Shown: piece by piece, positions 1,026 through 7,947 of the stretch
Numbering within the stretch: the first letter of the stretch is position 1
How the letters are laid out: the number at the start of each line of letters is the position of its first letter
The notes under the pieces: generated by a model
Seen by the model: the letters and a program-made list of their open reading frames with translations, nothing else
The model's database searches: none
What the model was told of the DNA's origin: nothing
DNA from: a virus
Lineage: Duplodnaviria; Heunggongvirae; Uroviricota; Caudoviricetes
DNA length: 8,561 nt
IMG/VR virus record: IMGVR_UViG_2778261354_000018
Span: 1-8,561 of that record
Reading direction: 5' to 3' (one strand)
Position numbers and translations under genes: made by a program

Positions 1026-1490
1026 TCACACAAGTACCGAAAGGTTATTAAGCGCCCCTTTAACGTTATTCGCCAGATCGCCAAGTGACGAGGACTGGAG
1101 GCGCTCACGCAAATCTTCATTCACACGCTGAAAGGTCACCGTAAACTCTATCTTCCTGGCCCTGCCATAGCGATCGAGTTCTGAGCGCGTGGTCTGTAAC
1201 GAGGTTATGACGTACATCCCGTAAATCTGCCCGACACCATCAATCAGTGGCCATGGACGCCCCGCATACGCCTGAGTTGTCAGTGCCGTAAGCGAGACTT
1301 CACCGCCTGTTATTTCCGGGTAGAGAAGACCGGAAAGCGTGATGGTATCGTCACCCGCACCGATATACTGCCAGCTTGCCGAGCGGTTGATTCGCTCGTT
1401 CTTTACATGCCGCCAGTTACGGGACTGCTGTATTTGTTGGTGTGGCAGTTTGCTTAGCTGAAAAACAAACATGCCGTAAATCATCATCAT
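1026..1490 (-). CDS. U: Phage tail protein U (P2 gpU family)
   Basis: Translation (MMMIYGMFVFQLSKLPHQQIQQSRNWRH...GAGDDTITLSGLLYPEITGG...) resembles P2 gpU as I recall it. Several clustered starts exist (GTG 1499, ATG 1496, 1490, 1487, 1484). ATG at 1490 is 8 nt after an AGGAG that overlaps the T stop codon (TAGGAG), so it is preferred. Stop TGA at 1028-1026. Confidence 0.85.
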   Translation of the reverse strand: MMMIYGMFVFQLSKLPHQQIQQSRNWRHVKNERINRSASWQYIGAGDDTITLSGLLYPEITGGEVSLTALTTQAYAGRPWPLIDGVGQIYGMYVITSLQTTRSELDRYGRARKIEFTVTFQRVNEDLRERLQSSSLGDLANNVKGALNNLSVLV

Positions 1491-1501
1491 AGCCATCACT
1501 C

Positions 1502-6741: not shown

Positions 6742-6801
6742 ACATAGCCGGACAGAAACGACAGGGTACGCGTGGGATGATACGCACACGGGAGGGGCAT
6801 C

Positions 6802-7947
6802 ATGAGTATCACAGAATCAGTAACACATCACATCAACAGCGCACTGGATGAAGCGGAAGACACAGTGAGGGTACCGGACTTCACTATCACACTGGAAGGA
6901 AAAGATGACAGCCTGAAGAACATCACGCAGCGCATCATGAGCCTCACCATGACAGACAACAGGGGTTTTGAGGCTGACAGGGTGACGCTGGAAATCGACG
7001 ACGCCGACGGCGAGGTGGTACTTCCGGAACGTGGAACAAGATTATCTCTGTCTCTGGGATGGAAAGGCGAAAGCCTCACACACAAAGGGACGTTCGTTGT
7101 GGATGAAGTCGCACACGACGGGCCACCGGATAAGCTGACCATCTCCGCGAACAGCGCGGATTTTCGCGAAGAGTTTAACGTGAAACGCGAAGTCTCCTGG
7201 CATGACGTGACCGTTGAGCGTGTGGTATCTGCCATCGCCAACCGTTACGGACTGAAAGCACAAATCAGCGAAATGTTGATGAACATCGAAATCGACCATG
7301 CCGACCAGACAGAGGAAAGTGATATGTCATTCCTCACGCGCATGGCTGACATGCTGGGTGCAATAGCCACCGTAAAAAACGGGTGCCTGCTGTTCATTCT
7401 GCCGGGTGGTGGTGTGACGGCCAGCGGTCGCGCCCTCCCCTCGTTCGCCCTGACCCGTTCGGATGGCGACAGCCACCGGTTCCGCATTGCTGACAGACAG
7501 GCCTACACCGGGGTGAAGGCTTACTGGCTGGATTTAAAGTTCGGTCAGAAGAAGGCCGTGAACGTGAAAAAGCGAAACGCGCAAACCACGCAGAAGCCGG
7601 AGAAAAGCAGTTCACGGGAGGGCGGATACATGGAAGGCGCAGAAGGCAACGTGTATGTGCTGAGAAAGACCTACCCGAACGAAGAGGCCGCGCGTCGCGC
7701 AGCTGCCGCACGCTGGCAGCAACTTCAGCGGGGCGCAGCAGAATTCAGCATCACACTGGCGCGTGGACGCGCCGACCTGTATCCGGAGATGCACGGCACG
7801 GTATCCGGGTTCAAGAGCGACATTGACAATCAGGACTGGATTATTTCGCGCATTGAGCACGTCATCAACGACAGCGGCTTCACCACCCGACTGGAGCTGG
7901 AAGCAAAAATCGCAGACTGGATAGCAGAGAGTAACACGACTGGCTAG
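6802..7947 (+). CDS. D: Phage late gene D protein (P2 gpD family; tail/baseplate-hub-associated protein)
   Basis: 381-aa ORF with N-terminal ...RVPDFTITLEGKD...LTMTDNRGFEADRVTLEIDDADGEV... and C-terminal ...WIISRIEHVI... typical of the gpD family as I recall it. GGGAGGGG SD 4 nt upstream of the ATG. Confidence 0.9.
   Translation: MSITESVTHHINSALDEAEDTVRVPDFTITLEGKDDSLKNITQRIMSLTMTDNRGFEADRVTLEIDDADGEVVLPERGTRLSLSLGWKGESLTHKGTFVVDEVAHDGPPDKLTISANSADFREEFNVKREVSWHDVTVERVVSAIANRYGLKAQISEMLMNIEIDHADQTEESDMSFLTRMADMLGAIATVKNGCLLFILPGGGVTASGRALPSFALTRSDGDSHRFRIADRQAYTGVKAYWLDLKFGQKKAVNVKKRNAQTTQKPEKSSSREGGYMEGAEGNVYVLRKTYPNEEAARRAAAARWQQLQRGAAEFSITLARGRADLYPEMHGTVSGFKSDIDNQDWIISRIEHVINDSGFTTRLELEAKIADWIAESNTTG

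What the first reader, a model, noticed from the sequence alone, without database searches (positions are those of the whole stretch)
1026..7947. Tail operon FI-FII-E-T-U is inverted relative to flanking tfa and D-ogr (non-canonical for P2-like phages)
In P2 and 186 the order G(tfa), FI, FII, E, T, U, D, ogr is co-directional, with D co-transcribed from the F operon. Here tfa, D and ogr are on the plus strand while FI through U are on the minus strand. This is exactly what an in-place inversion of the FI-U segment would give, with the moron remaining next to tfa. The consequences are that U becomes the last gene of its operon (a hairpin follows it) and D needs its own promoter (a candidate lies upstream of it). 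This could be a lineage-specific arrangement, a recent rearrangement in a decaying prophage, or an assembly artefact.
Basis: partly seen in the sequence, partly recalled or inferred. Interest (0 to 1): 0.55.

Follow-up and report, generated by a model that had tools for sequence, protein, structure and literature searches.

The report
Native inverted tail operon, P2-like prophage
The flipped tail-gene block is real, but it is the normal inherited gene order of a large, functional branch of P2-like phages, so it is neither a recent rearrangement nor an assembly error and is largely ordinary.

Summary
P2 and 186 have all of these genes co-directional.

- All 84 related loci whose D protein is at least 56% identical to the window's have the same FI<->D divergent layout. 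All 76 more distant loci have the P2 order.
- In trees of D, FI, U and FII the inverted loci form one clade with no canonical member inside. Outgroups (186, Burkholderia, Mannheimia, Ralstonia, Vibrio) are canonical. This points to a single old, derived inversion.
- The clade includes plaque-forming phages (P88, PhiSM), and its FI gene matches about 1,500 of 5,426 complete E. coli genomes.
- The junctions carry no inverted repeats, and the E/E' frameshift site is intact.

How D is expressed is my inference. The ~153-bp FI-D spacer has a fixed architecture, with one Ogr-type dyad (TGT-N12-ACA, 6724-6741). Conserved -10 hexamers lie 48.5 nt to either side. The predicted start sites are 111 bp apart, the same spacing as the P2 PP/PO promoter pair, which shares one activator site. 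No transcript data were available.

Low interest.

The parts
1..264 (+). 3' end of the tail-fibre assembly gene (tfa, P2 G equivalent), last gene of the rightward V...H-G operon
   Evidence: Pfam Caudo_TAP, E = 8e-22. It is 98% identical to tfa genes of E. coli phages. The source contig begins only 143 bp upstream of the window.
271..300 (.). Hairpin between the convergent tfa and moron genes, a terminator-like site usable in both directions
   Evidence: 13-pair stem followed by a T-run on the - strand. It lies 7 nt after the tfa stop codon and 8 nt after the moron stop codon.
308..913 (-). Moron: hexapeptide-repeat acetyltransferase (annotated serine O-acetyltransferase in relatives). The likely start is at 880. 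A sigma-70-like promoter lies at 960->932.
   Evidence: Pfam Hexapep. GC is 34-41% against about 55% for the tail genes. Promoter-like site TTGAAT-17-TATAAT. The same gene sits between tfa and U in other prophages.
1000..1021 (-). Hairpin 5 nt after the U stop codon, the presumed end of the leftward F operon
   Evidence: dG -17.1 kcal/mol. The region folds with z = -4.3. 54 of 65 distinct relatives have a hairpin of -10 kcal/mol or stronger within about 50 nt after U, many of the A-run/stem/T-run bidirectional kind. The window's copy has no U-tract.
1026..1499 (-). gpU (tail tube initiator), last gene of the inverted block
   Evidence: Pfam Phage_P2_GpU, E = 5e-41. Gene call 1026-1490.
1502..4408 (-). 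gpT tape-measure protein (maximal ORF; the probable start gives 1502-4354, 950 aa)
   Evidence: Pfam PhageMin_Tail. Gene call.
4347..4894 (-). gpE (4502-4894) and the -1 frameshift product E+E' (E' frame 4347-4502). The slippery heptamer T_TTT_TTC lies at 4559->4553.
   Evidence: Sequence read. The heptamer is in the X_XXY_YYZ register of the E frame. The -1 frame is called as a 51-aa Phage_P2_GpE product that overlaps the T start. The P2 record annotates the equivalent frameshift.
4940..5452 (-). gpFII tail tube
   Evidence: Pfam Phage_tube, E = 3e-49.
5452..6648 (-). gpFI tail sheath. The start ATG at 6648 is invariant across the clade.
   Evidence: Pfam sheath domains. The CAT at alignment columns 13-15 is invariant in A1.
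6684..6689 (-). Predicted -10 hexamer (GATTAT) of the leftward F promoter. The predicted start site is about 6677.
   Evidence: A2, A5 and T6 of the hexamer are invariant in the 12-sequence alignment. An nAnnAT hexamer lies 48.5 nt from the dyad centre in 68 of 73 distinct relatives, and almost never at other offsets.
6724..6741 (.). Single Ogr/Delta-type activator dyad TGTGTGGATTTTTTTACA (TGT-N12-ACA), centre 6732.5, proposed to serve both divergent promoters
   Evidence: The ACAA half-site is invariant, and T91 and T93 of the left half-site are invariant. The consensus TGT-N12-ACA for P2 late promoters is cited in PMC3931495. The left half-site variant (TGT or TCT) matches that of the P-O dyad of the same phage in 5 of 5 pairs.
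6773..6781 (+). Predicted extended -10 (TG-n-GATGAT) of a D promoter. The predicted start site is about 6788. A Shine-Dalgarno GGGAGGGG lies at 6790-6797.
   Evidence: G-14, A2 and T6 are invariant. An nAnnAT hexamer lies 48.5 nt from the dyad centre in 58 of 73 relatives and at 49.5 nt in 11 of 73.
6802..7947 (+). gpD baseplate hub, separated from the F operon
   Evidence: Pfam Phage_GPD. It is 49% identical to P2 D and 73% identical to P88 D.
7989..8291 (+). ogr: Ogr/Delta zinc-finger late activator (100 aa, CX2C-X24-CX4C), 41 nt downstream of D
   Evidence: Pfam Ogr_Delta, E = 6e-16. Sequence read. The homologue in L001 is annotated with the same length.

Best explanation
The window is the right-hand end of an intact-looking P2-like (Peduoviridae) prophage. 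The prophage is integrated beside tRNA-Leu(taa) next to pgsA-uvrC in an Escherichia chromosome.

Its layout is tfa -> | <- moron | <- U-T-E/E'-FII-FI | D -> ogr ->. This is the fixed, inherited gene order of a large clade of enterobacterial P2-like phages. That clade descends from one ancient inversion of the PF-FI...U block.

How I think it works (inferred, not measured):
- The inversion carried the F promoter and its dyad-symmetric Ogr-binding site to a position next to D.
- That single dyad (6724-6741) now sits midway between two -10 elements, 48.5 nt to each side.
- Ogr bound at the dyad would therefore activate RNA polymerase leftwards into FI-FII-E/E'-T-U. That transcript would end at the hairpin after U.
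- The same bound Ogr would activate rightwards into D, and probably read through into ogr.
- This is the design the P2 record annotates for its divergent PP/PO promoters: one activator site, and start sites 111 bp apart.
For: Layout is native (shown):
- A collinear match to window 1000-8561 at about 89.5% identity occurs in 16 complete E. coli genomes. One of them (L001) is a full P2-like prophage.
- A second lineage at about 80% identity has the same tfa-acetyltransferase-U junction.
- tblastn census: 84 of 84 loci with D >=56% identical are inverted, with I, J and ogr co-directional with D. All 76 loci with D <56% identical are canonical.
- Hosts span Escherichia, Citrobacter, Salmonella, Klebsiella, Trabulsiella, Edwardsiella, Brenneria, Serratia, Rouxiella, Pantoea and Symbiopectobacterium.
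- Neighbour-joining trees of D, FI, U and FII place all inverted loci in one clade with no canonical member inside.
- Outgroups 186, phiE202, Mannheimia 1127AP1, Ralstonia YO188_2 and Vibrio VP58.5 are canonical, so the inversion is the derived state.

The clade is functional:
- P88 is inducible and forms plaques (PMC5285337).
- PhiSM forms plaques and lysogenises K-12 (PMC6456863).
- SEN4 has the layout.
- The E/E' slippery site is intact in the window.

Prevalence: a probe across the FI-D junction matches 1,511 of 5,426 complete E. coli genomes, mostly through its FI part at about 72% identity. A sampled O104:H4 genome shows FI(-)|D(+).

Promoter model (inferred from conservation):
- In a 12-taxon alignment of the spacer with 47% mean column identity, 19 of the 20 invariant columns fall on predicted functional elements. 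These are the two start codons, an invariant C in the Shine-Dalgarno-like GGTG upstream of the FI start, the D Shine-Dalgarno sequence, both -10 hexamers and both dyad half-sites.
- The offset scan peaks sharply at 48.5 nt on both sides of the dyad: 68 of 73 on the FI side and 58 of 73 on the D side.
- The P2 record annotates one 'activator binding site; pO, pP promoters' at 3057-3087, with start sites at 3016 and 3127. This matches the 111-bp spacing predicted here.
- The P-O spacers of clade members have the same one-dyad design.
- The left half-site variant (TGT or TCT) agrees between the P-O and FI-D dyads of the same phage in 5 of 5 pairs.
Against: - No transcription start site, Ogr binding or reporter data exist for any member of this clade in what I could search. 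The start sites at about 6677 and 6788 are predictions, good to about +/-2-3 nt.
- The left half of the dyad is degenerate in about half of the relatives (TCT instead of TGT).
- The hairpin after U in this window lacks a U-tract, so termination there is not assured.
- The sequences compared are related by descent. The counts are therefore not independent events.
- The half-site agreement rests on only two TGT-type pairs and three TCT-type pairs.
- The census samples were ranked by similarity to the window's D protein. Rare reversions elsewhere could have been missed.
Confidence: 0.8

Rival explanations
1. A recent in-place inversion of FI-U in this particular prophage, which is decaying.
For: The layout differs from P2 and 186. 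The prophage is seen only partly, because the contig starts inside tfa.
Against: The same layout occurs in 84 of 84 relatives down to 56% D identity, and these are monophyletic. All seven tail ORFs are full length with Pfam hits, and the E/E' frameshift site is intact. The spacer has conserved regulatory elements. The junctions have no inverted repeats.
Confidence: 0.02
2. An assembly artefact: a mis-join or flipped contig segment.
For: The contig begins 143 bp before the window, inside the repetitive tfa gene, so the left junction lies close to a contig end.
Against: Both junctions lie within one 50-kb contig. The U|...|tfa junction and the FI|D junction both recur in complete genomes and in isolated phage genomes from many laboratories.
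Confidence: 0.01
3. A programmed invertible segment: FI-U flips under a site-specific invertase, as the Mu G or P1 C segments do.
For: P88 encodes a DNA invertase immediately next to the U end of the block, beside an invertible tail-fibre cassette.
Against: No inverted repeats flank the block in the window, L001 or P88. The window has no invertase gene. Only one orientation is seen in 84 loci. Flipping would separate FI from its promoter context, and the fixed divergent promoter architecture is conserved.
Confidence: 0.02
4. The layout is native, but D is not driven by a shared Ogr site. D would have an independent promoter (constitutive sigma-70, or a second unrecognised activator site), or would be expressed mainly by another route.
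For: The D-side element is an extended -10 (TG-n-GATGAT), a type that can work without an activator. The left dyad half-site is degenerate in many relatives. No transcript data exist.
Against: The D-side hexamer keeps an exact 48.5-49.5 nt distance from the dyad centre in 69 of 73 distinct spacers. It mirrors the FI side and reproduces the P2 PP/PO geometry. Only one dyad is found in the spacer. D is a structural late protein, so constitutive expression in a lysogen would be unexpected (inference).
Confidence: 0.15

Closest known systems
Escherichia phage P88 (Xuanwuvirus) and relatives PhiR44_2, Chuche, 500465-2 and Citrobacter PhiSM
   Same: The gene order and strands are identical: H-G(+), U-T-E'-E-FII-FI(-), D(+), ogr, hok. 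The FI-D spacer is about 140-155 bp and has a single dyad with symmetric -10 elements. They belong to the same monophyletic clade as the window.
   Different: Only about 72-73% protein identity for D and FI, and 39% for T. Megablast covers only 5-7% of the window. The dyad left half-site is TCT rather than TGT, and Ogr is only 48% identical. P88 has an invertase and an invertible fibre cassette where the window has an acetyltransferase moron.
Unnamed E. coli prophages at serS or leuZ (for example strains SW070917, MSB1_4I, UCPROB-002)
   Same: Collinear with window 1000-8561 at about 89-90% identity, with the same layout and the same TGT-type dyad. Some sit at the same pgsA/tRNA-Leu site as the window's prophage.
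   Different: They have no acetyltransferase moron, so the tfa-like gene directly abuts U. They differ from the window by about 10% at the nucleotide level.
Bacteriophage P2 and 186 F/J operons
   Same: The same seven tail proteins plus Ogr/B, and the same E/E' frameshift. The moron hot spot between G and the F block is the same, holding Z/fun in P2. Late promoters carry a dyad activator site about 55 nt upstream.
   Different: FI...U-D is one co-directional operon in P2 and 186, and D has no promoter of its own. Proteins are only about 47-50% identical.
P2 PP/PO divergent late promoters
   Same: One dyad activator site lies midway between two divergent late promoters, about 55.5 nt from each start site, with the start sites 111 bp apart. 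The geometry predicted for FI/D in the window is the same. In Smp131 the putative PP' and PO' promoters are placed at the same coordinates on opposite strands (PMC3931495).
   Different: It controls the packaging and head genes, not the tail genes. There is no sequence similarity beyond the motif. The P2 start sites are annotated in the record, whereas the FI/D start sites are predictions.

Membership tests
P2-like (Peduoviridae) contractile-tail module | Encodes gpFI sheath, gpFII tube, gpE/E' chaperones with a -1 frameshift, gpT tape measure, gpU, gpD hub and an Ogr/Delta zinc-finger activator | tested here: met
   Pfam hits for U, T, FII, FI, D and Ogr. The E' frame is called as Phage_P2_GpE. 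The slippery T_TTT_TTC is in register.
Canonical P2/186 late-operon organisation | FI-FII-E-T-U-D co-directional with G and ogr, with D transcribed from the F promoter | tested here: not met
   FI...U is on the opposite strand to tfa, D and ogr. P2 and 186 are co-directional.
Inverted-F clade of enterobacterial Peduoviridae (includes Xuanwuvirus and Senquatrovirus) | FI start and D start divergent across a spacer of about 110-180 bp; V...H-G, D and ogr on one strand; U convergent with tfa | tested here: met
   Window spacer 6649-6801. The same arrangement holds in 84 of 84 relatives.
Inverted-F clade of enterobacterial Peduoviridae (includes Xuanwuvirus and Senquatrovirus) | Groups phylogenetically with the other inverted genomes, to the exclusion of canonical ones | tested here: met
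   Neighbour-joining trees of D, FI, U and FII have no canonical terminal under the common ancestor of the inverted loci. No bootstrap support was computed.
Genus Xuanwuvirus (P88) | High genome-wide nucleotide identity to P88. The genus threshold of about 70% over the genome is from my own knowledge of ICTV practice. | tested here: not met
   Megablast finds only 5-7% of the window aligned to the P88 relatives PhiR44_2 and Chuche, at 74-76% identity, and no phage record covers >=80% of the window. Only 8.5 kb of the prophage is available.
Ogr/Delta-dependent late promoter (P2 PP/PO type, shared site) | TGT-N12-ACA dyad upstream of a weak promoter | tested here: met
   Dyad at 6724-6741. It is conserved (ACAA invariant) across the clade. 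The consensus is cited.
Ogr/Delta-dependent late promoter (P2 PP/PO type, shared site) | Dyad centred about 55 nt upstream of the transcription start, on both sides for a shared site | tested here: inconclusive
   Conserved -10-like hexamers lie 48.5 nt to each side, which implies starts at about 55.5 nt. No start site has been measured.
Ogr/Delta-dependent late promoter (P2 PP/PO type, shared site) | Transcription requires the Ogr protein and its binding to the dyad | not testable with these tools
   This needs reporter, footprint or RNA data. Only supportive evidence exists: ogr is encoded next door, and the half-site variant agrees with the P-O dyad of the same phage in 5 of 5 pairs.
Site-specific invertible DNA segment (Gin/Cin/Hin type) | Inverted crossover repeats at both ends, an adjacent invertase, and both orientations present in populations | tested here: not met
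   No junction inverted repeats above chance. No invertase in the window. A single orientation in 84 loci.

The most novel reading that the evidence does not exclude
The inversion created a fifth Ogr-dependent late promoter, PD. It did so by re-using the dyad-symmetric activator site of PF in both directions. This clade would then be a natural example of how a symmetric class-I activator site lets an operon be split by inversion without loss of co-regulation. It would also put ogr under direct positive autoregulation from PD. I did not find this described for any member of the clade in the literature I could search.
Probability: 0.65. Interest if true: 0.35.

Novelty: new member of a known kind. 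Interest (0 to 1): 0.2.

Why it matters
The main value is as a correction. P2 and 186 are not the only canonical layout for P2-like phages. A very common enterobacterial branch has the sheath-to-U block inverted, and its FI gene matches about 28% of complete E. coli genomes. Annotation or prophage-integrity tools should not treat this layout as damage.

There is also a modest biological point. The conserved, mirror-symmetric FI-D spacer gives a testable picture of how an operon can be split by inversion and stay under the same activator. A recent P2 structure preprint still describes the tail gene order as conserved in the Peduoviridae it compared, so the clade-defining inversion appears not to have been pointed out explicitly.

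Tried and rejected
- Junction inverted repeats. A whole-window scan and targeted local alignments with shuffles for the window, L001 and P88 found nothing above chance.
- Origin of the FI-D spacer as a duplicate of the P-O spacer or of P2 PF. Local alignment scores are no better than shuffles.
- Rfam scan of the window at gathering threshold. No hits, so no annotated hok/sok-type RNA was recovered.
- Strict TGT-N12-ACA search. It missed about half of the relatives. After alignment these proved to carry a TCT left half-site, so I relaxed the pattern.
- Erwinia phage ENT90. It first looked like a possible inverted member from the strand of its FI hit, but it is canonical.
- Pairing P-O and FI-D dyads on the same IMG/VR contigs. 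This gave only two shared contigs, so the co-variation test stayed small.
- Literature searches for an explicit description of the inversion or of a D promoter. The P88, PhiSM and SEN4 papers do not mention orientation, and the general searches found nothing either.
- One paper search failed on a term that was too short.
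Full report
**1. What is in the window**

Six-frame ORFs and Pfam give the following map.
- + strand: tfa C-terminus at 1-264.
- - strand: a low-GC hexapeptide acetyltransferase at 308-913.
- - strand: gpU 1026-1499, gpT 1502-4408 (gene call 1502-4354), gpE 4502-4894, gpFII 4940-5452 and gpFI 5452-6648.
- + strand: gpD 6802-7947, a 100-aa Ogr/Delta zinc-finger protein at 7989-8291, and a Hok/Gef-like ORF at 8422-8561.

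The E/E' programmed frameshift is intact. T_TTT_TTC at 4559->4553 is in the X_XXY_YYZ register, and the -1 frame is a GpE-family product that runs into the T start.

The window comes from a 50-kb NCBI contig (GCA_002461255.1, NJZR01000032.1). That contig starts 143 bp upstream of the window, inside tfa. It continues to the right into tRNA-Leu/Cys/Gly, pgsA, uvrC and uvrY. This flank is 98% identical to E. coli. The window is therefore the right end of a prophage next to tRNA-Leu.

**2.

The P2 record has G, FI, FII, E, T, U, D and ogr on one strand. It states that the F operon encodes FI through D. Phage 186 has the same arrangement. In the window the FI-U block is on the opposite strand to tfa, D and ogr.

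A 9-bp GC-rich hairpin follows U. The moron lies between tfa and U, at the same hot spot that holds Z/fun in P2.

**3. The layout is not unusual, recent or artefactual**

- Window 1000-8561 aligns collinearly at about 89.5% identity in 16 complete E. coli genomes. In strain SW070917 it is the end of a complete P2-like prophage with the same strands.
- A more distant lineage, at about 80% identity over the tfa-acetyltransferase-U-T junction, has the same order.
- tblastn of D and FI against phage records shows FI(-) and D(+) about 150 bp apart in many phages. These are P88, P884B11, 500465-2, PhiR44_2, Chuche, Citrobacter PhiSM, Enterobacter phiT5282H, Serratia KSP20, many Klebsiella phages, 520873 and Salmonella SEN4/SEN5. 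Records with 47-53% identity are co-directional.
- I fetched 74 loci from one genome per species and 80 IMG/VR loci, and classified them by tblastn.
  - Every locus whose D is >=56% identical to the window's is inverted (84 of 84). FI is adjacent to D, and I, J and ogr are co-directional with D.
  - Every locus below 56% is canonical (76 of 76).
- Neighbour-joining trees of D, FI, U and FII, rooted on Vibrio VP58.5, place all inverted loci in one clade with no canonical member inside.
- Phage 186, Burkholderia phiE202, Mannheimia 1127AP1, Ralstonia YO188_2 and Vibrio VP58.5 all have sheath...U-D co-directional. The P2 order is therefore ancestral, and the inversion is a single derived event.
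- Members of the clade are working phages. P88 is induced and plated (PMC5285337). PhiSM forms plaques and lysogenises K-12 (PMC6456863).
- A probe across the FI-D junction matches 1,511 of 5,426 complete E. coli genomes, mainly through FI at about 72% identity. A sampled O104:H4 genome has the divergent layout.
- No inverted repeats mark the junctions, which is what one would expect for an old event.

**4. How D is probably expressed (inference from conservation)**

The FI-D spacer keeps nearly the same length and architecture across taxa whose D proteins are only 60-75% identical. Of the 20 invariant columns in that alignment, 19 fall on predicted functional elements:
- the FI start codon;
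- an invariant C in the Shine-Dalgarno-like GGTG upstream of the FI start;
- a GAnnAT hexamer on the FI strand (6689->6684);
- both halves of a dyad, TGT-N12-ACAA (6724-6741);
- a TG-n-GAnnAT extended -10 on the D strand (6773-6781);
- the D Shine-Dalgarno sequence and the D start codon.

I anchored 73 distinct spacers on the dyad and scanned all offsets from 30.5 to 65.5 nt.
- An nAnnAT hexamer occurs at exactly 48.5 nt in 68 of 73 spacers on the FI side, and at 49.5 nt in 5 more.
- It occurs at 48.5 nt in 58 of 73 on the D side, and at 49.5 nt in 11 more.
- It occurs almost nowhere from 30.5 to 47.5 nt. Beyond the peak, the FI side has smaller signals at 51.5 nt (5 of 73) and 62.5 nt (20 of 73), which I did not follow up.

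This places both predicted start sites about 55.5 nt from the dyad centre and 111 bp apart (6677 and 6788).

The P2 record annotates the same geometry for PP/PO. It lists one 'activator binding site; pO, pP promoters' at 3057-3087, with starts at 3016 and 3127. TGT-N12-ACA is the published consensus of the four P2 late promoters. In Smp131 the putative PP' and PO' promoters are placed at the same coordinates on opposite strands (PMC3931495).

The P-O spacers of clade members have the same one-dyad design. The left half-site variant agrees between the P-O and FI-D dyads within each phage: TGT in L001 and SEN4, and TCT in P88, L084/L199 and L095/L240. This fits one cognate Ogr reading both sites.

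The model is as follows. The inversion moved PF and its symmetric Ogr box next to D. A -10 element at the mirror position was then enough to give D, and by read-through ogr, Ogr-dependent expression. None of this has been measured.

**5. The other end of the block**

Most relatives have a strong hairpin just after U, often of the A-run/stem/T-run type that can terminate both convergent operons. The window's hairpin is strong but has no U-tract. The moron with its own promoter and terminator lies between that hairpin and tfa.

**6. Comparison and novelty**

The window belongs to the inverted-F clade, but no phage in the INPHARED collection is close to it. No record covers more than 7% of the window by megablast. 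Its nearest relatives are unnamed E. coli prophages at about 89% identity. It is a new member of a known kind.

I found no paper that points out the inversion or a D promoter. A 2026 P2 preprint describes the tail gene order as conserved in the Peduoviridae it compared. The layout is nevertheless plain in every deposited genome map of P88-like and SEN4-like phages.

**7. Verdict**

The reading as a rearrangement or an artefact is refuted, and only the 'lineage-specific arrangement' option survives. Interest is low. The one point worth testing is the shared bidirectional Ogr promoter.

Noticed in passing
window 308-960: A low-GC (34-41%) hexapeptide-repeat acetyltransferase moron with its own sigma-70-like promoter (960->932) and terminator-like hairpin (300->271). 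The same gene sits between tfa and U in other E. coli prophages, and next to tfa in phages JL22 and Ro157c2YLVW (annotated sacF / serine O-acetyltransferase). It may be a lysogenic-conversion gene. Its function was not examined.
   Followed up: partly
window 8254-8561 (ORF 8422-8561): A Hok/Gef-family toxin ORF lies directly downstream of ogr. It is 88% identical at the DNA level to 'MokW-like host killing' loci of Stx2 phages, and is conserved at this position in P88 and L001. Rfam gave no hit at gathering threshold for the associated RNAs. The window ends exactly at the ORF's stop codon.
   Followed up: partly
L007 (Vagococcus sp. WN89Y) and L075 (Planococcaceae bacterium UBA3378): Contigs attributed to Firmicutes carry this enterobacterial prophage. 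The FI-D spacer of L007 is nearly identical to that of P88. These look like contaminating enterobacterial contigs in those assemblies.
   Followed up: no
L004 (P88) 24860-27564: In P88 the slot between tfa and U holds an inverted second fibre/tfa cassette plus a DNA invertase, which is a Mu G-segment-like host-range switch. The window has the acetyltransferase moron in that slot. The tfa-U junction is therefore a cargo hot spot, as the G-FI junction is in P2.
   Followed up: partly
L002 26660-27775 and L248 3312-4112: RefSeq annotates the P88-type D gene as a shortened 801-nt 'VgrG/Pvc8 family' CDS with a small pseudogene upstream. tblastn, however, aligns it to D residues 5-377 as a single continuous match (L002 26660-27769). 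This is probably a start-site mis-call in PGAP for this lineage.
   Followed up: no
window 7945-7950: A TAGAAT sequence overlaps the D stop codon, 38 nt before the ogr start codon. It could be the -10 of an ogr-specific promoter, analogous to the P2 ogr promoter. The -35 match is poor, and conservation was not checked.
   Followed up: no
window 1502-4408: The tape-measure protein is 950-968 aa, against 815 aa in P2. It has a Pro/Ser/Ala-rich stretch near the C-terminus. T is by far the most divergent tail protein within the clade, at 31-40% identity to P88-type T.
   Followed up: no
window 6710 (alignment A1 column 83): An invariant C within a conserved CAC(G) lies about 33 nt upstream of the predicted FI start site. 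It is the only invariant spacer column not explained by the model, and may be a -35-region contact.
   Followed up: no
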